Source: Gammaproteobacteria bacterium (GTDB lineage Bacteria; Pseudomonadota; Gammaproteobacteria; Eutrophobiales; Eutrophobiaceae). Taken from it: DNA of 64,000 nt. The position numbers and the translations under genes are program-made. The stretch covers positions 1,184,001 to 1,248,000 of the forward strand of contig CBDEUK010000002.1 in assembly GCA_965243205.1 (NCBI GenBank), written 5' to 3'. The notes beneath the pieces were generated by a model that worked only from the letters and a program-made list of their open reading frames with translations, was not told where the DNA came from and did no database searches. Every line of letters starts with the position of its first letter. Position 1 is the stretch's first letter. Shown in pieces: positions 5,565 through 46,147 of the stretch.

Positions 5565-5588
5565 TTGAATATTCAATTATAAGTATTA

Positions 5589-5615
5589 AAAAAGGCCGAT
5601 TTAATCGGCCTTTTT
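5589..5615. terminator. Bidirectional intrinsic terminator
   Basis: aaaaaggccga/tcggccttttt inverted repeat between convergent genes. Confidence 0.88.
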
Positions 5616-5632
5616 ATTAGTCTAAATAAAAG

Positions 5633-5983: not shown

Positions 5984-6083
5984 ATGTTTTACCTTACATA
6001 AAATGATTAATTTGATTCTATCAAAAATACTTCATAGAAGGTTATAATCTCTTCTAATAAAAATAGATTTCATGGAAGAAGTT

Positions 6084-7592: not shown

Positions 7593-7645
7593 ATTCGAGA
7601 ATTTGATGACTTGCGAATAGATGAAGTTTCAGGTCAAATAACACT

Positions 7646-8026: not shown

Positions 8027-8034
8027 TCTTTTTC

Positions 8035-8868
8035 ATGGCTATCTATGCCATAGGTGATTTGCAAGGCTGTTACGATGAGTTAATGGATTTATTGCATGAA
8101 ATCAATTTTGATGAAAGGAATGATCAACTTTGGTTTGCTGGTGATCTCATTAATCGTGGCCCAAAATCTTTAGAGTGCTTAAAGTTTGTTTTCAATCACC
8201 CTATAAATTGTAAGACTGTTTTAGGTAATCATGATTTGCACTTTATTGCTTTGTCTTATGGCGTTCGACAACCTCATAAAAGCGATACACTGGATGAACT
8301 CTTAAATTCAAAAAACAGAAATAAATATATAACATGGTATAAACAACAACCATTTCTATTGCATGATGAAGATTCAAATTTTTATTTACTTCATGCAGGT
8401 TTACCACCTCAATGGGATATACAGCTTAGTATTGAATTAGCAAACGAAACTTCGCAATTCTTACAAAGCAATGAGTTCGATAAATTTATTCACTCTATGT
8501 ATGGAAACAAACCTGTTTTATGGCAAGACGATTTAATTGGTTATGAACGTTTTCGATTTATTATTAACTGCTTCACTAGATTAAGGTATTGCAATAAAGA
8601 CGGTTCATTAGAATTTAAATATAAAGAAGCTCCAGGGACACAAAACGAATATTTATTTCCCTGGTATTCTCATAAAGCAAGAAAGAGTAAAAACAGCAAG
8701 ATTTTATTTGGTCATTGGTCTACAGTTACTTTGGGGAAAGATAAGGACTTTTCAATTTGGAATGCGTATCCTCTAGATACAGGTTGTTTATGGGGAGGAA
8801 GTTTAACGGCATTACGACTTGAAGATGAGACCTTATTTAAAGTTCCTTCACGACAAAAAAACAAATAA
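8035..8868 (+). CDS. apaH: Symmetrical bis(5'-nucleosyl)-tetraphosphatase
   Basis: IGDLQGC, GDLINRGP, LGNHDLH, HAG, FGHWS, LDTGCLWGG. Confidence 0.96.
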   Translation: MAIYAIGDLQGCYDELMDLLHEINFDERNDQLWFAGDLINRGPKSLECLKFVFNHPINCKTVLGNHDLHFIALSYGVRQPHKSDTLDELLNSKNRNKYITWYKQQPFLLHDEDSNFYLLHAGLPPQWDIQLSIELANETSQFLQSNEFDKFIHSMYGNKPVLWQDDLIGYERFRFIINCFTRLRYCNKDGSLEFKYKEAPGTQNEYLFPWYSHKARKSKNSKILFGHWSTVTLGKDKDFSIWNAYPLDTGCLWGGSLTALRLEDETLFKVPSRQKNK

Positions 8869-8885
8869 AAACTAGAGATAAATAA

Positions 8886-33559: not shown

Positions 33560-35080
33560 ATGCAAGAATTAACACCTGAAAATATAAAAACAAATTTATT
33601 AAGTGGTTTAACCGTTGCGTTAGCAATGGTACCTGAGGCTATTGCCTTTGCTTTAATCGCTCATGTATCACCTTTGACAGGACTCTATGCTGCTTTTTTA
33701 ATTTGCTTAATCACATCAGTTATCGGTGGAAGACCTGGTATGATTTCAGGTGCTGCGGGGGCATTAGCCGTGGTTATGGTGGCATTAGTTGTAGAACATG
33801 GAGTCGAATATTTATTCGCTGCGATTGTATTAATGGGTGTGTTTCAACTCATTTTTGCCGCTTGTCGGTTAGGAAAGTTTATTCGTATGGTACCCCACCC
33901 TGTCATGCTTGGGTTTGTGAATGGCTTAGCTATGGTCATTTTTCTAGCACAGTTTAATCATTTCAAAATAGAAAATGAAAATGGTATAAACCAATGGATG
34001 TCGGGTATGCCGCTTTATACCATGGCAATGTTAATAGCTATTACGATTGCTATTATTTATTTGCTACCCAAATTTACTAAAGCCATTCCATCAACCCTCG
34101 CTGCTATCTTAGTTGTTTCATTAGCTGTAATAGGTTTAGACATTGATACCAAAACCGTTGGCGACTTAGGTTCGATCGGTGGAGGCTTACCAACTTTTCA
34201 TCTTCCAGATGTTCCGTTTAATCTAGAAACCTTAAAAATTGTTTTGCCTTATTCATTGATACTCGCTGCTGTGGGATTAATCGAAACTTTATTAACCTTA
34301 AACTTGATCGATGATATGACTGACACGCGAGGAATGCCAAATACAGAGTCGATGGCACAAGGTATTGCGAATGTCGTCACAGGATTATTTGGTGGCATGG
34401 GCGGTTGTGCGATGATTGGTCAAAGTATGATTAATATTAACAACGGCGCCTTACATCGTTTATCAGGAATCGCTACCGCTGTATTTCTTTTATCATTTAT
34501 TTTATTCGCATCAACCTGGATTGAGATGATTCCATTAGCAGCATTAATTGGTGTGATGTTTGTTGTTGCAGAAAAAACATTTGAATGGGGAAGTTTTCGT
34601 TTATTCGGTCGCGTTCCTAAACCCGATATCGTTGTTGGTTTATTAGTCGCAATTATTACTGTGTTTGCAGACTTAGCGATTGCCGTGATCGTTGGTGTTA
34701 TCTTCTCAGCCTTAGTGTTTGCATGGGAACATGCCAAGCAAATCAATGTTAAATCATCAACTGATGGCAAAGGCTGGAAAAACTATGAACTGAATGGTTC
34801 TTTATTCTTTGCCTCAGTAACGGAGTTTCAAAGTTTATTCACTCCGAAAGAAGATCCAAACGATGTCGTCATTGATTTTCAAAATGCCAAGGTAATGGAT
34901 CACTCAGCGTTAGAAGCCATTGATAACTTAGCAGCAAAATATATTGAACTCGGTAAAAGTTTGCACCTAAAACATCTCAGTGCTGATTGTTTAGAATTAT
35001 TGGATAAAGCCAAAGGCATGATCGAAATAAATGTGTTAGAAGATCCTAAGTATCATATAGCGGATGATAAGTTAGGTTAA
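33560..35080 (+). CDS. SulP-family inorganic anion transporter with STAS domain
   Basis: LSGLTVALAMVPEAIAFA, GGRPGMISGAAG, GGCAMIGQS, C-terminal GSLFFAS..D.SALEA. Confidence 0.95.
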   Translation: MQELTPENIKTNLLSGLTVALAMVPEAIAFALIAHVSPLTGLYAAFLICLITSVIGGRPGMISGAAGALAVVMVALVVEHGVEYLFAAIVLMGVFQLIFAACRLGKFIRMVPHPVMLGFVNGLAMVIFLAQFNHFKIENENGINQWMSGMPLYTMAMLIAITIAIIYLLPKFTKAIPSTLAAILVVSLAVIGLDIDTKTVGDLGSIGGGLPTFHLPDVPFNLETLKIVLPYSLILAAVGLIETLLTLNLIDDMTDTRGMPNTESMAQGIANVVTGLFGGMGGCAMIGQSMININNGALHRLSGIATAVFLLSFILFASTWIEMIPLAALIGVMFVVAEKTFEWGSFRLFGRVPKPDIVVGLLVAIITVFADLAIAVIVGVIFSALVFAWEHAKQINVKSSTDGKGWKNYELNGSLFFASVTEFQSLFTPKEDPNDVVIDFQNAKVMDHSALEAIDNLAAKYIELGKSLHLKHLSADCLELLDKAKGMIEINVLEDPKYHIADDKLG

Positions 35081-35155
35081 AATATCAATTGAATATAGAT
35101 TTCAATTATATACTTACTATAATATAACTACATTTTTAAAACAGGAGGTTACAAA

Positions 35156-35227
35156 ATGCCAAAACTAACTAATTACATTATACGTAACTTATTCCTTCTA
35201 ATATTCTCATATAACGCATTGTCATAG
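35156..35227 (+). pseudogene. 23-codon signal-peptide-like ORF, probably a truncated exported-protein gene
   Basis: SD AGGAGG at 35143-35148; MPKLTNYIIRNLFLLIFSYNALS*; TATAAT at 35118-35123; inverted repeat aattgaa-N7-ttcaatt at 35087-35107. Confidence 0.5.
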
Positions 35228-35233
35228 CTAAAT

Positions 35234-35710
35234 ATGAGTGAATATTTTCATTACATTAATCATTCCAAAAAACAACGTTTTAGCATTGGTGAATTTGGAA
35301 ATTCGGATAAATTTTCTGGAATTGGATATGGTCTAAGCGCTAGAGCATTTGCACTTTTATTAACGGAATCAAATGACCATGATATTAAAATGAAAGATAC
35401 GTTGTTTGGAAGCTGGATTGGTGATGAAATTCAATGTATAGGTGATCATGGCAACATACAAGATAAATATTTTGGCTATGATGAAATCATATTTGAAATT
35501 GTGACCATGTTGATATCTGCTGGAGATTTAGAAGAAATTATTGAAGCATCAAAATTGGATAATGGGCTTTTTTCAAAACTTTGTGAATATGTATTTATGT
35601 CAAATGATAATGTCCTTGAAAACTATATTTGTAAAGCGCATGGTTTAACTTGGAAGAAAAAATATAAGGAGTTAACACCGAATTATATAAAAAATAATAA
35701 CGAGTATTAA
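35234..35710 (+). CDS. Hypothetical protein (cassette-like)
   Basis: 158 aa ORF, AT-rich, with GSWIGDEIQCIGD motif. Confidence 0.75.
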   Translation: MSEYFHYINHSKKQRFSIGEFGNSDKFSGIGYGLSARAFALLLTESNDHDIKMKDTLFGSWIGDEIQCIGDHGNIQDKYFGYDEIIFEIVTMLISAGDLEEIIEASKLDNGLFSKLCEYVFMSNDNVLENYICKAHGLTWKKKYKELTPNYIKNNNEY

Positions 35711-35715
35711 ATGCT

Positions 35716-35853
35716 ATAACTGTTTAATACAGTCGATTTTAGTATGATCAGCTGAATTTAAACTTTATAACTATAAATACATATGGATTACTTATATCAA
35801 AGAGCTAATGTACCTAATGCAATATTATGTTCCAATAAATTGCGAAATTAGGC
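35716..35853 (+). mobile_element. Eroded attC-like remnant
   Basis: Left end cTATAAC-tgttt-aatacagtcga; right end ttgcgaaATTAGGC (degenerate GTTAGGC) just before the next ATG. Confidence 0.35.
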
Positions 35854-35865
35854 AGAAGAAACATC

Positions 35866-36216
35866 ATGAAAGATTTCACACTAGAACCAATTTCAGATAT
35901 TGAAGTGTTTTTAACTCAATTTTTTACAAACGGTATGTTTATTTTATACGCCTTATCAGTAATTATATTTTTAGTAGCTTGTTTTATTCTTATTTTCAAA
36001 AGCCAAGCTAATGGAAGATACTTAATGCTATATGGTCTTTTAATTTATATAGTATCTAGTATTATTTGGTTCTTAAAATATCCACCTAATAATATTACTG
36101 ATTATAATGAATCAGTTGTATTACCTCTGCCTATGTATATGTTTATGATTTCATTATCCATATTTGTATTTATTATAGGTTTTTTACGATTTGTACTTTG
36201 GGCAATAAGACGCTAG
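35866..36216 (+). CDS. Hypothetical membrane protein (3 TM)
   Basis: Three hydrophobic segments. Confidence 0.7.
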   Translation: MKDFTLEPISDIEVFLTQFFTNGMFILYALSVIIFLVACFILIFKSQANGRYLMLYGLLIYIVSSIIWFLKYPPNNITDYNESVVLPLPMYMFMISLSIFVFIIGFLRFVLWAIRR

Positions 36217-36225
36217 TTATTCACA

Positions 36226-36657
36226 ATGTTGAAAATTGGATGTTCAATAATAAGTCTATGGGCCGTGTTAAATTTGTTAGCATCCCTAATTCTTGTGTTA
36301 ATTCCAGTGCTGGGTTTGGGCGAGTCTGCTCCAGCATTGTTAGAGTCTCTTTCCACTGCCACAATAAAAAATATAGACCCAAAAGTTTTATCTAATGCTA
36401 ATTCAATTGCAGTCTATGCAAATACACTGAATATTGCTGCTTCAATATCGATACTCTTTATTGTGTGGTTTGGTGTTTATAATAAAAAAAAGTGGTCGCT
36501 AGCTGCATTATTTTTAATATTAAGTTTAATGCTAAGCGCTGGTTTTTTTTCTGATTATGTATCTAAGCATGATCATATATTCATTAATATAGTATCTGGT
36601 ACAATAATATTTATTGGATTGCTATTTTCAATCTTAGGTATTTACAAACCAAAATGA
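36226..36657 (+). CDS. Hypothetical membrane protein (4 TM)
   Basis: Four hydrophobic segments. Confidence 0.72.
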   Translation: MLKIGCSIISLWAVLNLLASLILVLIPVLGLGESAPALLESLSTATIKNIDPKVLSNANSIAVYANTLNIAASISILFIVWFGVYNKKKWSLAALFLILSLMLSAGFFSDYVSKHDHIFINIVSGTIIFIGLLFSILGIYKPK

Positions 36658-37586
36658 ATAACAATTATTCTATTCCAAAGTTAATATGGTGGTTTCAATT
36701 CAATCTCTATAGTAATAAGACAATATGTAATTTAAAATTTTTTTATTGTTTTTTGATTTTATGTACCTTAACTGGCTGTTCTGCTTTCAGACCATTAGAT
36801 AATGATTCTCCAGTTCGTGAAGATTTCAAGATCCTTCAAGAAGATAGCCGTATTTTATACAAGCCATCTGCTATCCAGAATGCTCGAACTTTAATCCAAT
36901 ATATTGACTCTTCAATTTCGGCTGTAGAACAAGTACATGGCGAAAAGTTTTCTAAACAAGTAATTATTCATGTTTGTGATACCGAAGAGTGTTTTCAACA
37001 ATATACTCATAATCATTCCACAATTGCAGCAGCTGTTAGCGAAAATGGTTTATTTTTGTCGCCTAGAGCATTTCGAGAAAACCAACAGCAGTACTTCTTA
37101 ACTCATGAACTATCACACCTTCATTTGTTTCAACAGATTTCTTTATTACGTACTTGGTATATCCCACAATGGTTTCATGAAGGACTCGCAACTATGGCTG
37201 CAGATGGTGGTGGCGGACATAAAGTAAGTAAAAAAGATGCCATTGAATACATTCAATCAGGAAAACATTTTATACCAATTCATTCTTCTGGCTTATTTGG
37301 TGAAGGAGGAGCATTTAGTAATCGATGGCCGTTAAACTATACTGCTCCAAACGATGATAAATTTCTGCAAAATATGAATTATCGGCAAGCATCGCTATTC
37401 TTAGAATATTTGTCTAAAGATAATCAGATTCAAAATGTTCTGAGAGACATTGAAAAAGGCGAAAGTTTTGAGCGCGCTTTTTTTAAAGCCTTTGATAAAA
37501 AACCAAATGAGGTATGGGATAAGTTTATACAACAATTAAACTCTAACAAGAACATTAAAAATCATTTAAAAAATGATGCAGGTTAG
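36654..37586 (+). CDS. Gluzincin-type metallopeptidase lipoprotein (peptidase MA-like; start uncertain)
   Basis: LTGC lipobox, THELSH, PQWFHEGLA. Confidence 0.8.
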   Translation: MNNNYSIPKLIWWFQFNLYSNKTICNLKFFYCFLILCTLTGCSAFRPLDNDSPVREDFKILQEDSRILYKPSAIQNARTLIQYIDSSISAVEQVHGEKFSKQVIIHVCDTEECFQQYTHNHSTIAAAVSENGLFLSPRAFRENQQQYFLTHELSHLHLFQQISLLRTWYIPQWFHEGLATMAADGGGGHKVSKKDAIEYIQSGKHFIPIHSSGLFGEGGAFSNRWPLNYTAPNDDKFLQNMNYRQASLFLEYLSKDNQIQNVLRDIEKGESFERAFFKAFDKKPNEVWDKFIQQLNSNKNIKNHLKNDAG

Positions 37587-37588
37587 AT
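37541..37588 (+). mobile_element. Shortened attC-like remnant
   Basis: CTCTAAC-aagaa-cattaaaa ... tgatg-cag-GTTAGAT; the two core sites are complementary at 6 of 7 positions. Confidence 0.45.
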
Positions 37589-37640
37589 TTATAAAATATT
37601 ACTTACATTTATATCGTAGCCTTAAGGAAATATTAAATAA

Positions 37641-38021
37641 ATGAACAAGATATTACTAATATTAATTTTAACTACATTGTCTAGTTGTGCTTCTATAAAC
37701 ACACCAAGTTCTTCTCTTATAGATAAAGTATCTGTTGTAACAGTTGGTGAAACTTCTGGTGTGCAAGAAGAGCATATTGTTTTCATTCCAGCAAATACTG
37801 AATTTCCTATCCAGTTTTCCCTAAAAGGTAATATTTTCAACAAAGATTTATCATCCACGGTAATGGCTAGTTTCAAAAAAGATCTCTATCTATATAAATA
37901 TTGGGCAAGTCTGGATGGTAAAAATTGGGTAAATTCACATCAGTTAATAGATGTTAAACCATCAGGAGGATTTGATAAATCAGGTGGTAAAGTCGAAGTT
38001 CAATTAGATTTAGCTCAATAA
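37641..38021 (+). CDS. Hypothetical lipoprotein
   Basis: Lipobox LSSC. Confidence 0.78.
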   Translation: MNKILLILILTTLSSCASINTPSSSLIDKVSVVTVGETSGVQEEHIVFIPANTEFPIQFSLKGNIFNKDLSSTVMASFKKDLYLYKYWASLDGKNWVNSHQLIDVKPSGGFDKSGGKVEVQLDLAQ

Positions 38022-38029
38022 ATGAAGCT

Positions 38030-38383
38030 ATGATGAGTATATTGCTAATATTTCTAATAGCATTTATTATTTTTAGTTCTTTTGTAATTGCGTCTTATCC
38101 TTTTTTAAAATGGTCAGGTGTAAAAACTAATCTATGGAGTAGATCTTTGAAGTTTGGTGCGGCTATTTCAGGAATTTGGCTCTTAACCCAAATCCCATTC
38201 AAAATTATTTTCGGCGGTTTTTTTGGACTAATTTTTGGCTTTTTAGCAACTTATTTTTACATCAAGGCTAAACTTGATTTAACATCAGGTAAAAATCTTA
38301 TAATTGTTTTTTTGTTACCAATTTTAGCGGGGATTATTGCAACTCCGTTATTAATAACAGTGTTTAAAAAATTTTCAACATAA
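38030..38383 (+). CDS. Hypothetical membrane protein (about 4 TM)
   Basis: Hydrophobic profile; stop codon lies inside ACATAAC. Confidence 0.72.
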   Translation: MMSILLIFLIAFIIFSSFVIASYPFLKWSGVKTNLWSRSLKFGAAISGIWLLTQIPFKIIFGGFFGLIFGFLATYFYIKAKLDLTSGKNLIIVFLLPILAGIIATPLLITVFKKFST

Positions 38384-38401
38384 CCAGTCATTCCAGTCAA
38401 C
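38378..38401 (+). mobile_element. Left arm of an attC-like site (right arm missing)
   Basis: ACATAAC-cagtc-attccagtcaac, with the TAA stop in the inverse core position. Confidence 0.55.
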
Positions 38402-38424
38402 TTCCTATGTCTACTTAATTTAAT

Positions 38425-38922
38425 ATGAATGATGAAATAATAGCATGGGACGGCAAGTCTACTGATGATATTAGTTCAGTGTATGAAAAGTATCATAGCA
38501 AACCTAACTTTATAGATAATATTCTCTCTCAAATACATGATGTATCTATCCAGAAAGGTGGTACATGGTTGTTGAAAAAATGGTTAGAGTCAGGAAATAA
38601 GCTTAAAGTTGAACATATAAAAATAATATATGATTCACTACATGTATTGGAGCATTGGGAATCTAAACTTCATGTACTACAAATTTTACAATATATGCCT
38701 ATAGATAGCGTTCAAAAAACCAAAGTAGAATCATTTCTTAGAATAACATTAACAGATGATAATAAATTTATAAGGGCTTGGTCTTATAATGGGTTTTATG
38801 AGCTAGCTTCTCAACATCCAGAATACATGGAAGAGGTTAAACAATTTTTCGAGATTGCGTTACAAGATGAAGCCGCTTCTGTAAAAGCTAGAATTCGGAA
38901 TATAATAAAAAAAGGTTTTTAG
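38425..38922 (+). CDS. Hypothetical HEAT-repeat-like protein
   Basis: NKFIRAWSYNG..LA..., DEAASVKARIR helical-repeat pattern. Confidence 0.75.
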   Translation: MNDEIIAWDGKSTDDISSVYEKYHSKPNFIDNILSQIHDVSIQKGGTWLLKKWLESGNKLKVEHIKIIYDSLHVLEHWESKLHVLQILQYMPIDSVQKTKVESFLRITLTDDNKFIRAWSYNGFYELASQHPEYMEEVKQFFEIALQDEAASVKARIRNIIKKGF

Positions 38923-39037
38923 AAAAAATATATAAAGGCGAAGATTTTATGACTGCTTTTAATATAAATAAAACTATCATCACATTACAAAAAGCAAGTC
39001 ACTAATTACAACTTTATTCCGATAGTTAAAATTAATA

Positions 39038-40816
39038 TTAATTAATAATTTGTTGTTTAATATCGACGATCATATCCAGCAACTCTTCTAGAGTATTATC
39101 ATCAATACCATGACTGGATAATACTGAAACAAAATGTTGCACTAAAATTTTCCAGTCTTGTTCATCTATCTGCATATCATTATGCACTTCATTCATCTTC
39201 CTGCCAGTATATTTGTAAGGCCCTCCACTCATATCGCATATGTAATCAACCAAGTATTTTTTTTCCATTCTTATGCTATCTATTCCTCTATTTTGCCAAT
39301 GTCTACCTAATTGAGGATCTGAGCGTAATTTAGCTAATAAATCATCAATGAACTGTGTGATTTTAGTAATCCCACCAATTTTAGAATAAAGCGAATTTTT
39401 TTCTGGCTTTGAAATATTTAAAGATTTTATTCTTGAACTTAACGTTGACGAATTCATTCCTAGAAGCTTGGCTGCTCCATTTTCACCTGAAACACGCCAT
39501 GCCGTTCTTTCTAATGCATTAATAATATTATTTCGTTCAATTTGTTTAAGAATGATATCTGGAATAATCGTTTGTTTGTTTGAGTGGCTGATTCCATTAA
39601 AGTCAGTGCTAATTTGTTTCAGTGCTTGTTGAGGTAAAGCAAGATCAATTCTTAAGTGACCGTCGGATAAAATCACAGCTCTCTCAATCACATTTTTTAA
39701 TTCACGAATATTGCCAGGCCAGTCATAGTCTTGAAGCATGTTCAATTGCTCTTCAGTAAAACTTCCTATTTGTTTATCAAACTCTGTTTTTGCTATTTCA
39801 ACAAAATACTGTGCAAGCGGAACAATATCATCTTTTCTTTTCCTAAGAGGTGGCACCGTAATTGGAAACACACTAAGTCGATAGTAAAGATCCTCACGAA
39901 AACTCCCTTGTTCCACTTCGTGTTCTAAGTCACGGTTAGTCGCAGCAATAATACGAACATTAACTTCACGCGTTACGTTTTCCCCTACACGTTCAAATGA
40001 TTTTTGTTGAATTGAACGAAGTAATTTACTTTGTAAATCAATTGGAATTTCGCCGACTTCATCTAAAAACAAGGTTCCATTATGCGCAAGTTCAAAACGT
40101 CCGATTCTATCTTGAACTGCACCTGAAAAAGCACCTTTAACATGTCCAAAAAATTCACTTTCAAATAGTTCAGAAGGGATGGATGCGCAATTAACCGTTA
40201 TTAACGGCGCTTCTTTTCGATTACTCTTTTCATGGATAAGCCGTGCTACCATCTCTTTACCAGAACCTGACTCTCCTACAATGAGTACAGATGCATCTGT
40301 ATTAGCAACGGATTTAATCCTTTCAACCATTTGTAATAATGCAGGACTAGCACCGACCATGTCTCCAACATCTCGAATCTGTAACTTTTCTTCCCTTAAA
40401 TAATTTCGCTCCATGACCAGTTTTGAATTTAATTTGTCCAGTTCCTTTAAAGCACTTTCTTTTTCTTTTACATTTTCATAATACTTAGACACATTAATAA
40501 TGGTCCAAAGAATATCAAAATCATTTTTATGTTTATTTATGACACGTGTGTAAGCCAATAATCTTGAGGTTATATCTTGGAAATTAAATTTAAGTTCGAT
40601 TTGTCCTTGATTTAAAGAGCGTTCGTTTTTTAAAAATAATTCTAATTTCTTTAACGGCTTGAAGTGTTCAGTCATATTAGAAGCCATTAATTGTTCTGAA
40701 TCTGCATTCAATTGCTCTATGAACATATGATTAGAATTTTTAATCACACCTTTGCTATCAGTCACACAAATCATAATCGGCAGTGAATTTATATCTATCG
40801 GCTGCATATCTTTCAT
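39038..40816 (-). CDS. Sigma-54-dependent activator (PAS-AAA+-HTH) with a C-terminal group I truncated haemoglobin domain
   Basis: GESGSGKE, GAFSGA, LFLDEVGE, FREDLYYRL, WPGNIREL, HTH GAAKLLG..STL.SRI, then SLYSKIGG...GGPYKYTGRKMNEVH (39038-39394). Confidence 0.9.
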   Translation of the reverse strand: MKDMQPIDINSLPIMICVTDSKGVIKNSNHMFIEQLNADSEQLMASNMTEHFKPLKKLELFLKNERSLNQGQIELKFNFQDITSRLLAYTRVINKHKNDFDILWTIINVSKYYENVKEKESALKELDKLNSKLVMERNYLREEKLQIRDVGDMVGASPALLQMVERIKSVANTDASVLIVGESGSGKEMVARLIHEKSNRKEAPLITVNCASIPSELFESEFFGHVKGAFSGAVQDRIGRFELAHNGTLFLDEVGEIPIDLQSKLLRSIQQKSFERVGENVTREVNVRIIAATNRDLEHEVEQGSFREDLYYRLSVFPITVPPLRKRKDDIVPLAQYFVEIAKTEFDKQIGSFTEEQLNMLQDYDWPGNIRELKNVIERAVILSDGHLRIDLALPQQALKQISTDFNGISHSNKQTIIPDIILKQIERNNIINALERTAWRVSGENGAAKLLGMNSSTLSSRIKSLNISKPEKNSLYSKIGGITKITQFIDDLLAKLRSDPQLGRHWQNRGIDSIRMEKKYLVDYICDMSGGPYKYTGRKMNEVHNDMQIDEQDWKILVQHFVSVLSSHGIDDNTLEELLDMIVDIKQQIIN

Positions 40817-41022
40817 ATTTGTTTTATGTCTTTTTTAATAAATTATCTAATTATAGTCATTATTTTTAATAAATTTTTTTATTAAAAATGGCAAAAAATA
40901 CTATTAAAAATACAGAAATATTAAATATTTTGTTAAATCTAATGAAAAATATATTTCTGATTTAATAAGCAAATAATCTATAAAGCATTGAATTATATAT
41001 ATTAATTTCAAAAAAACTGGCC

Positions 41023-41038
41023 TGGCATACAGTCTGCA
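41023..41038 (+). promoter_or_regulatory. Sigma-54 -24/-12 promoter of the cupin-globin operon
   Basis: TGGCATACAGTCTGCA (GG-N10-GC) ending 46 bp upstream of the cupin ATG; IHF-like ATTCAAtgctTTA on the minus strand at about 40981-40993. Confidence 0.85.
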
Positions 41039-41084
41039 AAATGATCAATGCAATTATTGATAGATAATATTGGAGAAAGTAATT

Positions 41085-41555
41085 ATGAAAAAAATTCAAA
41101 AATTTATTTTTTGTTTATTAGCGTTAGGTATTGTGAATGCCTACGCTCATGAAATGGGTTCAAATATAAAACCCATTGCATTAGGAGCTGATCAAACCAT
41201 TATTGATTTTGACAAAATAGTTTGGTCGCCGCTCGAAGTTGATGGCCTTGATAAAGGCGCTGAGATTGCGGTTATTCGTGGTGACTTAAGCAAAGACGGT
41301 AGTGAAGTTATCATAAAAACGCCTGCTGGCTATTATGTAAACATGCATTCCCATACCAGTGATGAAACCTATATTTGGCTTCATGGTGCTTATACACTGA
41401 TTAGCGAAAATGGTAAGAAACATAAATTCCCCAGTGGCAAAGGCTATATTAGTTTTCCTGGAAATGCTCCTAAACATGCTTTGACATGTGATGCAAAAGA
41501 CTACTGCTTGTTGTACGTAAAATGGTCTAGACCTTTCGACATCATATATGACTAA
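41085..41555 (+). CDS. Exported metal-binding cupin (DUF4437-like)
   Basis: Signal peptide ending AYA; motif 1 PAGY...HSHTSDE......G; motif 2 G.....PGNAPKH; ATG 41085 with SD GGAG. Confidence 0.8.
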   Translation: MKKIQKFIFCLLALGIVNAYAHEMGSNIKPIALGADQTIIDFDKIVWSPLEVDGLDKGAEIAVIRGDLSKDGSEVIIKTPAGYYVNMHSHTSDETYIWLHGAYTLISENGKKHKFPSGKGYISFPGNAPKHALTCDAKDYCLLYVKWSRPFDIIYD

Positions 41556-41578
41556 GAAAATGACAAGGAATAGATAAT

Positions 41579-42016
41579 ATGAAAACTAAAACAATAACTT
41601 TAAATACACTAGCCTTAATGATGATGTTTACGAGTCCAAGTGCTTTTTCAAATGACTCTTTATACAGTCGGCTTGGGGGATATGACGCAGTTGCTGCAGT
41701 GGTTGATGATTTAATGAATCGTCTTGCAAACGATCAGCAAGTTGGTCGTGTATTAAAACATATCCCAGAGTCACGTTTTAATCATATCAGACAAATGATG
41801 GTAGATTTTGTATGTGAAGCGACTGGCGGACCTTGTAAATATATCGGTCAGACTATGGAAATAGCTCATCGTGGCATGGGATTAAATGAAAGTGATTGGA
41901 AATTAACCGTGAATCATTTACAACATACATTGAGTGAGTTTAATGTCCCTACAAATGAAAAAAATGAATTAATCAATATACTTGCTACGTTAAAACCTGC
42001 AATTGTTGATAGTTAA
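41579..42016 (+). CDS. Group I truncated haemoglobin with Sec signal peptide
   Basis: Signal ending AFS; SLYSRLGG, GGPCKYIG..M..AH (proximal His F8). Confidence 0.9.
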   Translation: MKTKTITLNTLALMMMFTSPSAFSNDSLYSRLGGYDAVAAVVDDLMNRLANDQQVGRVLKHIPESRFNHIRQMMVDFVCEATGGPCKYIGQTMEIAHRGMGLNESDWKLTVNHLQHTLSEFNVPTNEKNELINILATLKPAIVDS

Positions 42017-42060
42017 TTTAATAGATACTCCCCAGTAGTACATAAATAAATGGAATAATT

Positions 42061-42093
42061 TGTAACTGGAAAAGGATTTCCTCTCCATTTACA
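42061..42093. terminator. Hairpin downstream of the globin gene
   Basis: tgtaa-c-tgga-aa-agga / tcct-c-tcca-t-ttaca imperfect stem. Confidence 0.45.
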
Positions 42094-42429
42094 GAAAAAA
42101 TCATTTTAATTAATTATCTATTTTTGAATTTATAAAAATGAAAATATACATATTATTTTTTTTCATATTTTTAATTATTGGTAATTTATTCTTTTTGGAA
42201 TTAATAAAAAGAAATCATCCTGGCACCGTCTATTCTTGTACGCATAAGGAAAAAATTTAATGTGATACATGCCTCTAACTAATTTAAAAGATTAGTATTA
42301 TCAAAAAAATCTTACCTTTATAAGATAGACATATTAAATAAAAATTTAATATACTAACCATTAATATAATTATTGGTTGATTTCCTATAATTAATTTTCA
42401 TCTAAAAAAATGTAATTACTTTGTAATAA

Positions 42430-43317
42430 ATGATTAATATTCTGAAAAGAATTTTCTTTCGCCTCATCTTAATACTACTTTTTCTTTACCTTACATTATT
42501 TATTCATAATAATTATTGGTCAGAAAATTATTCTCAAACAGATATAGAAAATGCCTATAGCAATTCCATTACATGGCTAATTACTAATGAAGAAAAAATT
42601 TTTAAGGAAAAAAACTCGATGTTATGGTGGTTACTTATTCAATCACTTGAACTGGAAAATGAGCCAAGACTAAAAAAACTCGTCGATAATTATTTAAATG
42701 AAAACTATTTGTTTTATGTCAACACCCCATGGCACTCACTGTTATATGATGGTTCATCAAAAATAGATTCATTGTCATTACTTGCCTCAAAAATACCTGA
42801 ATACTCTAAATATTTTGTATATGGTTATACATGTGATGTAGAACTAAAAAATTCAGAAACAATAAGAAAGCAAAATAATTTAAATTATTGTTTTATAAAT
42901 TATCCAACCTCTCCTACATGTTTTACCCATCAGCTAATGGCCTTTAGATTCATGCAAAGAGCTAACTGCAAAACAGATATCAAATTAGAAACCCATATAG
43001 AAAAAATTGCTAATTGGATTAGTTACCAACTTACATTTGATGTTCGAGTTGTAGACGTATATATTCAAAGAGTCATGATGCTCATAGATAGTGGTAATAG
43101 TTCTAAATTAAGAAAACGTTGGGTTAAACGAATTTTAATTGAGCAACTAAATGATGGAGGCTGGAGTGGGTTTCAACCATTATTATCAATAGGTAATAAT
43201 AAATTTATAGGTTTTGGATCTAGAGGCTTAGCAATGAAGTCTAATAACTCAAATTTTCATGCAACAGCTCAAGGATTATATCTTTTATCTATGCTAAAAA
43301 ATAAATATTATGAATAA
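42430..43317 (+). CDS. Membrane-anchored protein with a prenyltransferase/QW-like repeat
   Basis: N-terminal TM; EQLNDGGW and HATAQGL; four Cys. Confidence 0.65.
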   Translation: MINILKRIFFRLILILLFLYLTLFIHNNYWSENYSQTDIENAYSNSITWLITNEEKIFKEKNSMLWWLLIQSLELENEPRLKKLVDNYLNENYLFYVNTPWHSLLYDGSSKIDSLSLLASKIPEYSKYFVYGYTCDVELKNSETIRKQNNLNYCFINYPTSPTCFTHQLMAFRFMQRANCKTDIKLETHIEKIANWISYQLTFDVRVVDVYIQRVMMLIDSGNSSKLRKRWVKRILIEQLNDGGWSGFQPLLSIGNNKFIGFGSRGLAMKSNNSNFHATAQGLYLLSMLKNKYYE

Positions 43318-43666
43318 TATACATATAAACTACGTTGAATTTCCTTGTAAGGATATAGATGCGACGAAACATTTTTTTTCTAATGTCTTTGGTTGGGAGT
43401 TCGAAGATTATGGGCCTGAGTATGCTGCTTTTTCAAACTCAGGTTTAGATGGTGGTTTTTTTAAATCAGATTTACGTTCTTCTGCTGCTGAAGGTTCAGC
43501 ATTGATTGTTTTATACAGTGATAACCTTGAACAAACTTTAAAGAATATAGAAACCGCTGGTTGTGAAATTTGTCAGCCTATTTTTTCTTTTCCAGGCGGA
43601 AGACGATTTCATTTTATTGAACCAAGTGGTAATGAATTAGCCGTTTGGTCAGATGTAGGAATTTAA
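43310..43666 (+). CDS. VOC/glyoxalase family protein
   Basis: INYVEF...FGWEFEDYGPEY, FPGGRRFHFIEPSGNELAVW. Confidence 0.92.
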   Translation: MNNIHINYVEFPCKDIDATKHFFSNVFGWEFEDYGPEYAAFSNSGLDGGFFKSDLRSSAAEGSALIVLYSDNLEQTLKNIETAGCEICQPIFSFPGGRRFHFIEPSGNELAVWSDVGI

Positions 43667-43670
43667 TATA

Positions 43671-43700
43671 AAAAAGGCGATGTATGAACATCGCCTTTTT
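43671..43700. terminator. Bidirectional intrinsic terminator
   Basis: aaaaaggcgatgt/acatcgccttttt. Confidence 0.9.
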
Positions 43701-43720
43701 AGTTTTATTGTTTATTATTT

Positions 43721-44653
43721 TTAATATTCGAATCCGAATTCTTCTTTAAAACGCGCTTTAAATTCATCAGGCGTAAACTGATGATTCTGCGTTCCGTTAG
43801 AAGCAATCTTGATAGAACCAATTAATGAAGCAATACGACCAGTGGTTTCCCAATCCATGTTATTTAATAATCCATATAATAAACCCGCACGATAAGAGTC
43901 ACCACAACCTGTTGGATCATTAATCGCTGCAGGTTTTACAGATGGAATATTTATTTCTTTTCCATCTGCATAAATCACAGAACCATCACCACCCATGGTT
44001 ACAATTAATGCTTTTACTTGCTTAGAAACTTCTTCTGCGCTCAATCCAGTTCGTTCCTGCATTAATTGCCACTCGTAATCATTCACGGTGACATAACTGG
44101 CTTGTTCAATAAAAGATTTTAAATCATTACCATCAAACATTGGCATACCTTGGCCTGGGTCAAAGATAAAAGGAATACCAGCTTCTGCAAACTGTTTGGC
44201 GTGTTCAATCATGCCATCACGACCGTCAGGCGAAATAATCCCGATAGTAATTCCTTCTGCATCACTGACTTTATTTTGATGCGATAAATTCATAGCACCT
44301 GGATGAAAAGCAGTAATTTGATTATCGTCTAAATCGGTTGTAATGAATGCTTGTCCAGTAAAGTTGTTTTCTAATATAGAAATATGTTTTCGACTGATCG
44401 CATAATGATCCATCCATTCTGCATAAGGGCCAAAATCTTTTCCTACTGTCGCCATTGGCACAGGTTCTTCACCCAATAATTTTAAGTTATAGGCAATATT
44501 ACCTGCACAACCACCAAATTCTTTACGCATCTCTGGTACTAAGAAAGAAACGTTTATCATATGAACCTTATCTGGCAGGATATGATTTTTAAATTGATCG
44601 GGAAATACCATGATATGGTCGTAAGCGAAAGAGCCACAAATTAAAGCAGACAT
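43721..44653 (-). CDS. PfkB-family nucleoside (adenosine-type) kinase
   Basis: GSFAYD, FGGCAGNIAY, FDPGQ, VNDYE, DPTGCGDSYRAG. Confidence 0.9.
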   Translation of the reverse strand: MSALICGSFAYDHIMVFPDQFKNHILPDKVHMINVSFLVPEMRKEFGGCAGNIAYNLKLLGEEPVPMATVGKDFGPYAEWMDHYAISRKHISILENNFTGQAFITTDLDDNQITAFHPGAMNLSHQNKVSDAEGITIGIISPDGRDGMIEHAKQFAEAGIPFIFDPGQGMPMFDGNDLKSFIEQASYVTVNDYEWQLMQERTGLSAEEVSKQVKALIVTMGGDGSVIYADGKEINIPSVKPAAINDPTGCGDSYRAGLLYGLLNNMDWETTGRIASLIGSIKIASNGTQNHQFTPDEFKARFKEEFGFEY

Positions 44654-44725
44654 ATTTAATCCTAATGTTGTTAAGTTAAAATCTGGAACTGAAAATTATA
44701 GGGAAAGTAAGATGATTGCAAATAT

Positions 44726-46147
44726 TTATCGATTTTTCTGTAGCCAAACAACATAATCATTTTTAAATGTGTCTGGATATTGCTGTTCAAAATCATGCCA
44801 TCGATTTAAATTTTCGAATAATGATTGAGTTTGATATTGTTTGGAAAATTCTTGGTATATCGTTTTATCTGTTAACTCTAACCCTAAAAGCTGAGAATTA
44901 AGTTGTCCAAGCATGTTTTTTATCTCAATCAGATCATAATGATTTTCATAGCGATGAAACAACATATCTCTGACACCAGACATATAATAATAATCTTTTA
45001 ACTCAATTAGTTTTTCAAAGCCATCTATTTTGATCAAATCATGTCGTAATGAACGTATAACTTCATCAGACTCTGAATATTGTTTTTCTTGAATATAATT
45101 AACCGATTTACGTATAGTTCTTCTTGCTAACTCACTGTATAAATTAAATCGCAATATACCTTGAACTGATAATTGATTAATAAACATTTCAAGTGCTTTT
45201 TGTGGTTTAGCAATATGTGATAAAACTCCCATGCAGTCAATAAAATCGAACTGAATATTGAGTTGGTCTATGTCCATCAAATCCATTTGAATAAATTCAA
45301 TATTATTGAATTGTAATTCCATTGCTTTTCGTTTTGCATAGGCCAGACTAGAAAGGCTTAAATCGATACTAATGATTTTAGAGTTGGAAAATCGTGATGC
45401 ATGTTCAATACTTAGCAAACCTGTACCACAACCAATAACAAGAACAGTTTCAGGTATATTTTTTAGCGTATATTGCATATTATCGAATAAGGATTGCTCG
45501 ATAAAAACATCAATACTCTGTTCAGTTACATCACTTATTTTAAACCATCTTGGATAGGGGTTTCTTTCATAGTGTTGTTTAACATTCTTTGTAATATCAT
45601 GCGTTAAACGACTTGTTTTTTTTATTGTATTTTTTAATTCATCCTCTGTTCGAGTATCCGTAATCTGATATTTGATAAGATTTTCAATTTCTATCGGAAA
45701 TGTATTTTTCGAATTTATTAATTTAACAATCTGTTTTTCTGATTGTATATTTTTATAACAAGCAATGATTAAAACCCTTAACCATACGATCGATTCAGGA
45801 AATTCAATAGTTTGTTGAGAAAATATATCTAAATAAAACTTTTCCTGTTCACTAACAAAAAAAACATATTCTGTATTGAAACATTGTTTCGATAAAATCG
45901 ATAAAAACAATTGTAGATTAAGAATATTTAATTGTTCGAATTCTTGTTCAAAGATTAAATTAAGTAATGATTTTCTGAAAGACGTTAGAAATATTTCAAT
46001 TTGATAATCAGAAATAATATTGAACGTTAAATAATTAACTATTTCTTCATCGATTAGAGAAGCAATTAAATTATCGTTAATCGATAATGATTCAATATTA
46101 TTTGTTTGGGCAATGGCCTTAAGTCGTTGTTTACCCTCAGCAGACAT
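44726..46147 (-). CDS. Class I SAM-dependent methyltransferase
   Basis: YERNPYPRW, VIGCGTG, IDLSLSSLAYAKRK, GVLSH, RDMLFH. Confidence 0.88.
   Translation of the reverse strand: MSAEGKQRLKAIAQTNNIESLSINDNLIASLIDEEIVNYLTFNIISDYQIEIFLTSFRKSLLNLIFEQEFEQLNILNLQLFLSILSKQCFNTEYVFFVSEQEKFYLDIFSQQTIEFPESIVWLRVLIIACYKNIQSEKQIVKLINSKNTFPIEIENLIKYQITDTRTEDELKNTIKKTSRLTHDITKNVKQHYERNPYPRWFKISDVTEQSIDVFIEQSLFDNMQYTLKNIPETVLVIGCGTGLLSIEHASRFSNSKIISIDLSLSSLAYAKRKAMELQFNNIEFIQMDLMDIDQLNIQFDFIDCMGVLSHIAKPQKALEMFINQLSVQGILRFNLYSELARRTIRKSVNYIQEKQYSESDEVIRSLRHDLIKIDGFEKLIELKDYYYMSGVRDMLFHRYENHYDLIEIKNMLGQLNSQLLGLELTDKTIYQEFSKQYQTQSLFENLNRWHDFEQQYPDTFKNDYVVWLQKNR

What the first reader, a model, noticed from the sequence alone, without database searches (positions are those of the whole stretch)
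39038..42016. Candidate new two-globin sigma-54 module: haem-coupled activator driving an exported cupin and an exported truncated haemoglobin
Seen: a sigma-54 activator with a fused truncated haemoglobin is divergent from a clean -24/-12 promoter (41023-41038). That promoter precedes a two-gene unit (exported cupin, exported group I truncated haemoglobin) closed by a hairpin. Known: sigma-54 activators usually control an adjacent divergent -24/-12 promoter, and group I truncated haemoglobins bind O2, NO or sulfide. Inference: this is a self-contained circuit in which a cytoplasmic haem sensor switches on a periplasmic cupin enzyme and a periplasmic globin that carries, buffers or detoxifies a small ligand (O2, NO, sulfide or a volatile thiol). 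I do not know a characterised system with this layout, and the ligand cannot be read from sequence.
Basis: partly seen in the sequence, partly recalled or inferred. Interest (0 to 1): 0.87.

Follow-up and report, generated by a model that had tools for sequence, protein, structure and literature searches.

The report
Haem-globin-tailed sigma-54 activator driving exported cupin
A rare bacterial gene switch in which a sigma-54 activator carrying a truncated haemoglobin at its tail sits next to the promoter of an exported metal-binding cupin and an exported haemoglobin, giving a testable handle on what bacterial truncated haemoglobins do.

Summary
Window 39038-40816 (-) encodes a 592-aa PAS + sigma-54 AAA+ + HTH_8 + group I truncated globin protein. 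It is divergent from a -24/-12 element at 41023-41038. That element precedes a signal-peptide cupin (41085-41555) and a signal-peptide truncated globin (41579-42016).

The fusion is rare: 12 clusters at 90% identity among 5.8 billion proteins. In an AAA+-HTH tree all 18 fused rows form one clade. The -24/-12 element is kept in 5 of 5 fused-activator loci, and the cupin is the first divergent gene in 4 of 5. The exported globin follows the cupin in only 2 of those 4.

In one genome (G174) an unfused sister activator drives the same cupin plus an exported protoglobin. Each gene has its own -24/-12 element and palindromic upstream site.

Three fused variants have no N-terminal domain, so the globin is their only candidate sensor. 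Both globins keep the proximal His but lack Tyr B10. The ligand, haem binding and the cupin's reaction are not shown. I read this as a new variant of haem-based one-component sensing, of moderate to high interest.

The parts
39038..40816 (-). Gene of the 592-aa sigma-54 activator (PAS + AAA+ + HTH_8 + truncated globin)
   Evidence: ORF; Pfam domains; 12 full-length relatives of 594-606 aa with the same precomputed Pfam set.
40559..40792 (-). PAS domain (residues 9-86)
   Evidence: Pfam PF00989, E 3.1e-5, 24.4 bits against a cut-off of 22.6. This part of the AF2 model has pLDDT 81-90. The domain is absent from 3 of 5 fused loci.
39653..40360 (-). Sigma-54 AAA+ core and lid (residues 153-388), with Walker A GESGSGKE, Walker B LFLDEVGE and a GAFSGA loop
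   Evidence: PF00158 E 8.2e-72 and PF25601 E 3.4e-22. These motifs are invariant in 12 of 12 aligned sequences.
39425..39550 (-). Fis-type HTH_8 DNA-binding domain (residues 423-464)
   Evidence: PF02954, E 8.9e-7, 29 bits against a cut-off of 22.
39044..39394 (-). C-terminal group I truncated globin domain (residues 475-591), about 10 residues after the HTH
   Evidence: PF01152 E 1.5e-10. The best PDB sequence matches are M. tuberculosis HbN (E 7e-12) and S. benthica TrHbN. Both GG motifs, His545 (F8) and Trp555 are invariant in 12 of 12. B10 is Leu.
40913..40959 (.). Candidate enhancer (UAS): inverted pair CAGAAATAT-N29-ATATTTCTG, 64-110 bp upstream of the -24 element
   Evidence: This is the only match in the 2.79 Mb genome, and the reversed control pattern gives 0. 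Related GAAAT(A/T)T palindromes lie upstream of the promoters in G014, G015, L097, L098 and G174. The nonamer count in the window alone is not significant. Binding is inferred.
41023..41038 (+). Sigma-54 -24/-12 promoter element TGGCATACAGTCTGCA
   Evidence: 2 matches in the window against 0.22 expected. GG-N10-GC is invariant in 5 of 5 orthologous intergenic regions. rpoN is present.
41085..41555 (+). Exported small metal cupin (156 aa, DUF4437-like); signal peptide about residues 1-21
   Evidence: H88, H90, E94, H131 and the pair C135/C141 are invariant in 31 of 31 aligned sequences.
41579..42016 (+). Exported group I truncated globin (145 aa); signal peptide about residues 1-24
   Evidence: PF01152 E 5.3e-13. 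The best PDB match is S. benthica TrHbN, E 7e-15. His97 (F8), Gln72, Trp107 and the pair Cys79/Cys86 are invariant in 28 of 28.
42059..42095 (+). Weak stem-loop after the globin gene
   Evidence: RNA fold of 42005-42125: -21.5 kcal/mol, z -2.3. The terminator scan did not call it.

Best explanation
This is a self-contained sigma-54 circuit. The activator is a one-component enhancer-binding protein whose family-defining extra domain is a group I truncated haemoglobin of the apolar-pocket kind (TrHbN-2-like), attached about 10 residues after the DNA-binding HTH.

Inferred steps:
1. The globin binds haem b through His545.
2. The haem's ligand or redox state (a diatomic gas or an oxidant: NO, O2, CO or peroxide) changes how the HTH-globin end lets the AAA+ ring assemble on the upstream site or act there. 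In this lineage a PAS domain adds a second input.
3. The active protein opens the single -24/-12 promoter at 41023-41038.

The transcript encodes two Sec-exported proteins, each with a conserved cysteine pair. One is a small cupin with a germin-type 3-His-1-Glu metal site. The other is a truncated haemoglobin that would take up haem in the periplasm. Together they most likely process or buffer the same reactive small molecule outside the cytoplasm.

Shown: the domains, the promoter, and the conservation of the regulator-cupin pairing.
Inferred: haem binding, sensing by the globin, export, and the chemistry.
For: Architecture and motifs.

Regulator-target link:
- The -24/-12 element is kept in 5 of 5 fused-activator loci.
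- The cupin is the first divergent gene in 4 of 5.
- Among nine cupin loci read, a -24/-12 element precedes the cupin in 5 of 5 with an adjacent related activator: the window plus L013, L014, L098 and L187. It precedes the cupin in 0 of 4 without one.
- The candidate UAS is unique in the genome.
- rpoN is present.

The globin as the defining domain and probable sensor:
- 18 of 18 fused rows form one clade (99/92) in a tree built without the globin. The unfused, cupin-linked G174 activator is sister to it (94/88).
- The N-terminal module varies: PAS; none (G015, L097, L098, P0190, P0225); or a cyclase-homology domain (P0268). AAA+-HTH-globin is constant.
- His F8 and both GG motifs are invariant.

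Cupin and exported haem globin belong together:
- In G174 the same cupin is followed by a signal-peptide protoglobin (PF11563, E 3.8e-33).
- Both G174 genes have their own -24/-12 element, each 83-85 bp downstream of one of the only 2 perfect CGAAATTTCG palindromes in 14.5 kb.

Export:
- Signal-like N-termini occur in 31 of 31 cupins and in 112 of 120 globin relatives.
- Cysteine pairs are invariant in both exported families. The cytoplasmic globin domain keeps only the first Cys.
Against: - No experiment or RNA data exists, and no listed run is on record as RNA.
- A sensor placed after the HTH is unusual for enhancer-binding proteins, and I know no worked-out mechanism for it.
- The full-length AF2 model is poor (pLDDT 60.3, pTM 0.33), so domain contacts are unknown.
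- Tyr B10 is replaced by Leu (activator) or Met (exported globin). The nearest solved relative, SbHbN, does not bind O2 reversibly (PMC11904497, passages). Ordinary O2 sensing or carriage is therefore doubtful.
- The exported globin is missing from 2 of 4 cupin-bearing fused loci, so it is not essential to the circuit.
- The cupin also occurs without any nearby activator or globin in 4 of the 9 cupin loci read.
- The cupin fold matches are generic, at 14-22% identity.
- The upstream-site motif lies in very AT-rich DNA, and the nonamer count alone is not significant.
- The number of independent loci is small, and kin are not independent.
Confidence: 0.6

Rival explanations
1. Haem-availability switch. 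The C-terminal globin reports whether haem is on hand (apo versus holo) rather than a gas. The circuit then makes a periplasmic haem-binding globin, with the cupin, to buffer, store or pass on haem.
For: A Sec-exported globin must take up haem in the periplasm, so it could act as a haem-binding protein there (inference). Some exported TrHbN relatives lie beside haem-related genes: an HbpS-like protein in L221, HemN in L227 and a class I/II aminotransferase in L237. The apolar distal pockets give no sign of tuned O2 chemistry.
Against: The cupin, not the globin, is the constant target (4 of 5 loci), and nothing links this cupin to haem. No haem uptake or export genes lie in the module. The contexts of exported globins are mixed.
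Confidence: 0.12
2. The PAS domain, or a partner protein acting in trans, is the real sensor. The fused globin would then be an enzyme or protective domain (for example an NO or peroxide scavenger) or a dimerisation module that came along with the regulator.
For: In enhancer-binding proteins the regulatory domain normally lies N-terminal to the AAA+ core (established knowledge of the family). The window's protein has such a PAS domain joined by a long helix, residues 110-146. The G174 sister activator works with PAS only and no globin.
Against: At least five fused forms have no N-terminal domain at all (G015, L097, L098, P0190, P0225). In them the globin is the only non-core domain. Globin residues are strongly conserved across the family.
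Confidence: 0.18
3. The adjacency is fortuitous. The -24/-12 match is not used, or the activator controls another promoter, and the cupin and globin genes are transcribed independently of it.
For: No transcript data exists. The sigma-70-like scan finds many weak hits in this AT-rich spacer, 19 against 20.0 expected. The cupin occurs alone in other genomes.
Against: The -24/-12 element is conserved in 5 of 5 loci although the spacers otherwise diverge (mean column identity 51%). The flanking genes differ in every genome while activator and cupin stay together. G174 repeats the promoter-plus-palindrome arrangement twice. The inverted repeat is unique in the genome.
Confidence: 0.07

Closest known systems
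Sensory bacterial enhancer-binding proteins such as NorR (NO sensor), NifA and FhlA
   Same: Sigma-54 AAA+ core, Fis-type HTH, a divergent -24/-12 target promoter and one-component logic. NCBIfam's best partial matches are NorR (E 2.9e-109) and NifA.
   Different: NorR senses NO through a non-haem iron GAF domain placed N-terminal to the AAA+ core (recalled). Here there is no GAF domain, the NorR score of 366 bits is below the 476-bit cut-off, and the match covers only residues 124-469. The extra domain is a haem globin fold placed after the HTH.
Globin-coupled sensors (HemAT, AfGcHK, globin-coupled diguanylate cyclases)
   Same: A globin fold fused to a signalling output, giving a haem-based gas sensor in one polypeptide. 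The review PMC7475203 (passages read) lists gene-regulatory outputs among them.
   Different: Those proteins carry an N-terminal 3-on-3 sensor (S family) globin followed by the output domain. This protein carries a 2-on-2 T1/N globin at the C-terminus. The Fig. 1 legend of that review lists bacterial chimeric T globins only for T2/O and T3/P.
Shewanella benthica TrHbN (SbHbN, PDB 7TT9/8UGZ/8TLS), subgroup TrHbN-2
   Same: It is the best solved-structure sequence match of the exported globin (E 7e-15). It also has a hydrophobic residue at B10 and a Cys at the same E-helix position.
   Different: SbHbN is a 116-aa chain in the PDB entries with no leader. The paper states that its two Cys are too far apart for a disulfide (PMC11904497, passages). 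The exported family has a signal peptide and an invariant C-x6-C pair around the GGP turn.
Periplasmic truncated-haemoglobin domains fused to pentahaem cytochromes in cable bacteria
   Same: They are truncated globin domains predicted to work in the periplasm, proposed to reduce O2 (PMC11976967, passages read).
   Different: Those are fusions to multihaem cytochromes c in Desulfobulbaceae. They are not linked to a cupin, a sigma-54 promoter or a globin-bearing regulator.
Small metal cupins (TM1459, Dke1-like dioxygenases, DddK/DddQ, Mn hydroxynitrile lyase, germins)
   Same: A single beta-barrel with an HxHx3E...H metal site. Foldseek probability is 1.0 and TM-score up to 0.58, normalised by the query.
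   Different: Identity is only 14-22%. The family here is exported, has a conserved Cys pair and a conserved SRPFD tail, and has no characterised member (one search finds no paper that names DUF4437).

Membership tests
Bacterial enhancer-binding protein (sigma-54 AAA+ activator) | Sigma54_activat domain above the curated cut-off | tested here: met
   PF00158: 240.8 bits against a cut-off of 20.2, covering profile positions 1-167 of 168.
Bacterial enhancer-binding protein (sigma-54 AAA+ activator) | Walker A, Walker B and the GAFTGA sigma-54 contact loop | tested here: met
   GESGSGKE, LFLDEVGE and GAFSGA are invariant in 12 of 12. The loop has Ser for Thr in the PAS group. The PAS-less relatives have GAFTGA.
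Bacterial enhancer-binding protein (sigma-54 AAA+ activator) | DNA-binding HTH, a nearby -24/-12 promoter, and rpoN in the genome | tested here: met
   HTH_8, 29 bits; promoter; Sigma54_DBD match, 233.5 bits.
Bacterial enhancer-binding protein (sigma-54 AAA+ activator) | ATP-dependent activation of sigma-54 holoenzyme | not testable with these tools
   Needs a reporter or in vitro transcription.
Group I truncated haemoglobin (TrHbN) | Bac_globin match, with best solved relatives in group I | tested here: met
   Activator domain 41.7 bits and exported protein 49.7 bits, against a cut-off of 21. All 25 and all 23 PDB matches are group 1 or N-type truncated globins.
Group I truncated haemoglobin (TrHbN) | Proximal His F8 and the two Gly-Gly motifs | tested here: met
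   H545, G481-G482 and G531-G532 are invariant in 12 of 12. H97 and G33-G34 are invariant in 28 of 28; in the second motif G84 is invariant and G83 is kept in at least 90%.
Group I truncated haemoglobin (TrHbN) | Polar distal network Tyr B10 / Gln E7 / Gln E11 (subgroup TrHbN-1) | tested here: not met
   B10 is Leu (activator) or Met (exported globin) in the alignments to HbN and SbHbN. This fits the apolar TrHbN-2 subgroup described in PMC11904497. The E7 and E11 equivalences are uncertain because of an indel.
Group I truncated haemoglobin (TrHbN) | Binds haem b | not testable with these tools
   Needs spectroscopy of the purified protein.
Globin-coupled sensor (GCS) | N-terminal 3-on-3 sensor (S family, protoglobin-like) globin followed by the output domain | tested here: not met
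   The globin matches PF01152, not Protoglobin or Globin, and lies at residues 475-591 after the HTH.
NorR | Equivalog score above the cut-off, and an N-terminal GAF domain | tested here: not met
   NF003451 scores 366.1 bits against a cut-off of 476. The match covers residues 124-469 only. Pfam finds no GAF domain.
Cupin superfamily / DUF4437 | Cupin barrel with metal motifs HxHx3-4E and a later His | tested here: met
   H88, H90, E94 and H131 are invariant in 31 of 31. The AF2 model has pLDDT 87.6. Foldseek finds 385 PDB matches with E <= 0.001, and the listed best 50 are almost all cupin-fold proteins.
Cupin superfamily / DUF4437 | Pfam family score above the cut-off for the window's own protein | tested here: inconclusive
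   Cupin_7 scores 23.3 bits, below 27. PF14499 (DUF4437) is precomputed on many close relatives but not on the window's own protein.
Sec-exported proteins | Cleavable N-terminal signal peptide | tested here: inconclusive
   Only my own hydrophobicity and charge heuristic, plus reading by eye. No signal-peptide predictor was available. There is no twin-arginine motif in the window's two leaders (read). Invariant Cys pairs fit export.

The most novel reading that the evidence does not exclude
A truncated haemoglobin placed after the HTH is a new kind of control domain for enhancer-binding proteins. The haem's ligand or redox state would gate activation through the DNA-binding end rather than through an N-terminal repressor domain.

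Its regulon would be a previously unrecognised periplasmic pair: a metal cupin working with an exported haem globin (TrHbN or protoglobin, interchangeably). The pair would act on a reactive oxidant or gas.

This would give the first genetically defined physiological role for the apolar TrHbN-2 globins, and for a large family of Sec-exported truncated haemoglobins.
Probability: 0.25. Interest if true: 0.8.

Novelty: new variant of a known kind. Interest (0 to 1): 0.62.

Why it matters
What most bacterial truncated haemoglobins are for is still unclear. PMC11904497 (passages read) says the purpose of most TrHbs has remained generally elusive.

Here one TrHb is wired in as the likely input of a switch. 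A second TrHb, or in one genome a protoglobin, is an output beside an uncharacterised exported cupin. That makes a compact, portable three-gene system that can be tested:
- The signal that turns on the promoter names the ligand.
- The cupin-globin pair can then be assayed with that ligand.

The module also adds three things to what is on record:
- a bacterial T1/N chimeric globin, a class the 2020 review's overview does not list;
- a sensor domain in an unusual place for a sigma-54 activator;
- a large family of signal-peptide truncated haemoglobins with a conserved cysteine pair.

Tried and rejected
Complex prediction. Mature cupin (residues 22-156) plus haem plus mature exported globin (residues 25-145) gave 'no answer': score 0.00, controls not folded. 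This is neither for nor against binding.

Expression. The look-up of sequencing runs listed no holder on record as RNA, so there is no evidence on expression.

Full-length activator model. pLDDT 60.3, pTM 0.33, and the AAA+ region is below 50. It was too poor for domain packing and was not sent to fold search.

Cupin function. Foldseek gives only generic small cupins, so no specific enzyme can be named.

Ligand inferred from neighbours of exported TrHbN relatives. I read 15 loci from other genomes. Their contexts are mixed:
- LysR regulator in 3 (L221, L224, L236), with a di-haem cytochrome c peroxidase in 2 of them;
- DUF3034 in 3 (L227, L239, L241);
- a globin-AhpC/TSA fusion in 1 (L228);
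- the rest unrelated or unclear.
This is a hint towards peroxide or redox chemistry, not a result.

Relatives of the activator's globin domain. One search scored 161 globin ORFs in loci L019-L176. None of the 155 standalone loci L019-L096 and L099-L176 has a cupin homologue nearby. One of them (L174) lies beside an unrelated sigma-54 activator, which sits on a long branch.

G000 paralogue of the activator at C2:2239553-2240650 (49% identity). It has no globin and no cupin nearby.

Rfam. No family match anywhere in the window.

The 165-aa ORF at 38425-38922. No Pfam or PDB match. The ESM Atlas look-alikes are HEAT-repeat clusters, which is only a lead.

Organism. It is not named by the tools. 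A search for DotI/IcmL found nothing, but the control genomes were silent too, so this shows little.

Supplementary files of papers were not consulted. The supplement of PMC11904497 (alignment of the TrHbN subgroups) might bear on the subgroup assignment.


Full report
WHAT IS THERE

The 592-aa product of 39038-40816 (-) carries these Pfam domains:
- PAS, residues 9-86
- Sigma54_activat, 153-319 (E 8.2e-72)
- AAA_lid_14, 325-388
- HTH_8, 423-464
- Bac_globin, 475-591 (41.7 bits against a cut-off of 21)

NCBIfam gives only partial matches below cut-off. The best are NorR at 366 bits (cut-off 476, residues 124-469) and NifA. The protein is therefore a sigma-54 enhancer-binding protein but belongs to none of the named equivalogs.

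About 200 bp upstream, on the other strand, TGGCATACAGTCTGCA (41023-41038) is one of two matches to the -24/-12 pattern in 64 kb, against 0.22 expected. The genome encodes RpoN.

Two genes follow the promoter.
- A 156-aa cupin runs from the ATG at 41085. Cupin_7 is below its cut-off, and relatives carry DUF4437.
- A 145-aa Bac_globin protein lies at 41579-42016.

Both start with a basic, then hydrophobic, then small-residue leader.

After the globin gene there is a modest stem-loop at 42059-42095 (z -2.3). The terminator scan does not call it.

HOW RARE IS IT, AND IS THE NEIGHBOURHOOD CONSERVED?

A word-indexed search with the globin end found 12 clusters of 592-606 aa with the same domain set among 5.8 billion sequences. 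They are 61-77% identical over the full length.

An exhaustive HMMER search of 1.84 billion representatives used an HTH+globin profile. Among the best 150 of 4386 hits, 7 were single-stretch hits that cover the HTH-globin junction:
- P0011 (600 aa)
- P0190 (445 aa)
- P0225 (456 aa)
- P0268 (639 aa)
- three fragments

Pfam shows P0190 and P0225 as AAA+-HTH-globin with nothing N-terminal. P0268 has a cyclase-homology domain in front.

Among GTDB species representatives, only G014 (69% identity, full length) and G015 carry the fusion. The metagenome scan added L097 and L098.

Five loci with a fused activator could be read:
- Window: activator, then divergently cupin and exported globin.
- G014: the same three genes.
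- G015: a PAS-less activator and the cupin, followed by an ORF that I recall as transposase-like. The contig ends inside the activator gene.
- L098: a PAS-less activator and the cupin, followed by a VWA protein and an HhH-GPD glycosylase. An Ada-type gene lies on the other side.
- L097: a 2-kb contig with a PAS-less activator. It is divergent from a leaderless globin-like ORF that runs off the contig and looks chimeric.

The cupin is thus the first divergent gene in 4 of 5 loci. The exported globin follows it in 2 of those 4.

The GG-N10-GC core of the promoter is invariant in 5 of 5 intergenic regions, which otherwise share 51% mean column identity. The flanking genes differ in every case, so the unit moves as a cassette. 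In the window it sits in a stretch of 25-35% G+C, against 38-39% outside it.

A SISTER SYSTEM STRENGTHENS THE LINK

The cupin was found in 9 of 401 sampled genomes of the class (one of the nine, G319, is flagged unpublished and was not read).

In G174 (L187) a 478-aa PAS-AAA+-HTH activator without a globin is divergent from the cupin. The next gene encodes a signal-peptide protein of the Protoglobin family (PF11563, E 3.8e-33), followed by a DUF1330 protein.

Both the G174 cupin gene and the protoglobin gene have their own -24/-12 element: TGGTACGGTTGATGCA and TGGCACAGTTGATGCA. Each lies 83-85 bp downstream of one of the only two perfect CGAAATTTCG palindromes in the 14.5-kb locus.

I built a tree from the AAA+-HTH part only. 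It has 30 rows. The three fragments and one partial sequence were left out.
- All 18 fused proteins form one clade (99/92).
- The G174 activator is its sister (94/88).
- The root is at the midpoint, and several rows have long branches.

Among nine cupin loci read, a -24/-12 element precedes the cupin in 5 of 5 with an adjacent related activator (the window; L013, L014, L098 and L187). It precedes the cupin in 0 of 4 without one.

In the window, the inverted pair CAGAAATAT-N29-ATATTTCTG (40913-40959) is the only such site in the 2.79-Mb genome. It shares the GAAAT(A/T)T half-site seen in the other loci. This fits an activator with a single target. Binding itself is inferred, and the nonamer count alone is not significant.

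THE GLOBINS

By sequence both are group I truncated haemoglobins. Every PDB match is of that kind (25 and 23 matches).

In the activator family the two Gly-Gly motifs, His545 (F8), Trp555 and Cys527 are invariant.

Aligned to M. tuberculosis HbN, B10 is Leu instead of Tyr. Met517 and Tyr521 fall near E7 and E11, next to a one-residue indel.

The exported globin has Met at B10, and its best solved match is S. benthica TrHbN. The paper on that protein (PMC11904497, passages read) does three things:
- It reports that SbHbN does not combine reversibly with O2.
- It reports that SbHbN reacts with peroxide to make haem d.

The two window globins are 33% identical without gaps. The activator's domain is 35-44% identical to the standalone, leaderless globins found in many phyla. 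By my heuristic 155 of 161 scored ORFs have no signal peptide, 3 are heuristic positives and 3 are long fused frames. The fused domain is therefore not a copy of its neighbour.

The exported globin has 393 relatives at E <= 1e-10. Of the 120 listed, 112 have a signal-like N-terminus by my heuristic. In 28 aligned sequences His97, Gln72, Trp107 and the pair Cys79/Cys86 are invariant.

THE CUPIN

All 31 aligned relatives have a leader. In all 31, H88, H90, E94 and H131 (a germin-type 3-His-1-Glu site) and C135/C141 are invariant.

The AF2 model (pLDDT 87.6) matches TM1459, Dke1-like dioxygenases, DddK/DddQ, a Mn hydroxynitrile lyase and oxalate decarboxylase at 14-22% identity. It is a metal cupin of unknown reaction. 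No paper in the library mentions DUF4437.

HOW IT MOST LIKELY WORKS

Shown:
- a sigma-54 activator with intact ATPase and sigma-54-contact motifs;
- a conserved -24/-12 promoter and upstream repeat;
- a conserved pairing with an exported cupin;
- repeated pairing of that cupin with an exported haem-globin of either of two unrelated globin families.

Inferred:
- The C-terminal globin binds haem and reports a ligand or redox state to the AAA+ motor through the adjoining HTH.
- PAS adds a second input in this lineage.
- The products act in the periplasm on the same reactive small molecule.

The main argument for the globin as sensor is that it is the constant extra domain, while the N-terminal module is PAS, a cyclase-homology domain, or nothing.

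I cannot name the ligand. The apolar pockets argue against classical O2 binding. My rough split is:
- NO or nitrosative stress, about one third;
- O2-derived oxidants or redox state, about one third;
- haem availability, CO, sulfide or cyanide, the rest.

Weak hints:
- Exported TrHbN relatives lie beside LysR regulators and a di-haem cytochrome c peroxidase (L221, L224), and one is fused to an AhpC/TSA domain (L228).
- Ada and glycosylase genes lie beside the cupin in L098 and L186.

COMPARISON WITH WHAT IS KNOWN

The system works like a one-component haem-based sensor regulator and like NorR-type activators with a divergent target. It fails the defining features of globin-coupled sensors, which have an N-terminal S-family globin, and of NorR (GAF domain, score below cut-off).

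A 2020 review lists bacterial chimeric T globins only for the O and P subfamilies (PMC7475203, Fig. 1 legend and passages read). Periplasmic truncated-globin domains have been proposed in cable bacteria, as fusions to pentahaem cytochromes (PMC11976967, passages read).

Five searches found no paper on a globin-sigma-54 fusion, on this cupin family, or on exported single-domain TrHbN:
- 'truncated hemoglobin' + 'sigma-54'
- globin / enhancer-binding protein / heme / sigma54
- heme-based sensor / globin / sigma-54 / AAA+
- 'truncated hemoglobin' + 'signal peptide' + 'periplasm'
- 'truncated globin' + 'periplasmic'

The library lacks most subscription journals, so this absence is not proof.

VERDICT

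The feature is real. It is a new variant of known kinds (sensory enhancer-binding protein; chimeric globin). Its conserved core is two genes, with a third that can be swapped.

Confidence is about 0.8 in the circuit and about 0.55-0.6 in the globin as haem sensor. Confidence in any particular ligand is low.

Interest: 0.62.

Noticed in passing
window 41579-42016 and relatives P0062-P0181: There is a large family of group I truncated haemoglobins with signal-peptide-like N-termini: 112 of the 120 best-listed relatives by my heuristic, out of 393 relatives at E <= 1e-10. They share an invariant C-x6-C pair around the GGP turn. I found no paper on exported single-domain TrHbN.
   Followed up: partly
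L187 (G174) 5428-8883: An unfused PAS sigma-54 activator is divergent from the cupin. Downstream come a signal-peptide protoglobin (PF11563) and a DUF1330 protein. The cupin and the protoglobin each have a -24/-12 element 83-85 bp downstream of a perfect CGAAATTTCG palindrome.
   Followed up: yes
L098 1463-6765 and L186 3659-7238: Ada-type methyltransferase/regulator and HhH-GPD glycosylase genes lie beside the cupin in two unrelated loci. Pfam confirmed them in L098. In L186 they were read by eye only. This could link the cupin to alkylation or nitrosative stress, or it could be chance.
   Followed up: partly
L221, L224, L236, L227, L239, L241, L228: Exported TrHbN relatives sit beside a LysR regulator in L221, L224 and L236, with a di-haem cytochrome c peroxidase in L221 and L224 and an HbpS-like protein in L221. 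They sit beside DUF3034 in L227, L239 and L241. L228 encodes a 480-aa globin-AhpC/TSA fusion.
   Followed up: partly
P0268 (639 aa, metagenome protein): A third architecture of the fused family: a Guanylate_cyc (cyclase-homology) domain, then the sigma-54 AAA+ core, then the truncated globin.
   Followed up: partly
P0182-P0189 and others: Multi-unit truncated-globin proteins of up to 1882 aa, with up to 12 globin stretches, head the exhaustive search. One (P0191) has a DEP domain. Their origin was not examined.
   Followed up: no
window 35000-46000: This stretch has lower G+C (0.25-0.35, against 0.38-0.39 on either side). It holds many small hydrophobic ORFs without Pfam matches, so the module sits in what looks like a variable region.
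   Followed up: no
window 3832-3847 (-): This is the second exact match to the -24/-12 pattern in the window (TGGCACAAATGCTGCT). Its context was not examined.
   Followed up: no
window 38425-38922 (+): A 165-aa ORF convergent with the activator has no Pfam or PDB match. Its ESM Atlas look-alikes are HEAT-repeat clusters (scores 0.94-0.97, recognition below the usual mark).
   Followed up: partly
G000 genome: The genome gives four Bac_globin matches. Two are in this module and two lie elsewhere (C2:2030993-2031346 and C2:1280870-1281202). It also gives 13 matches to the activator's AAA+ core.
   Followed up: no
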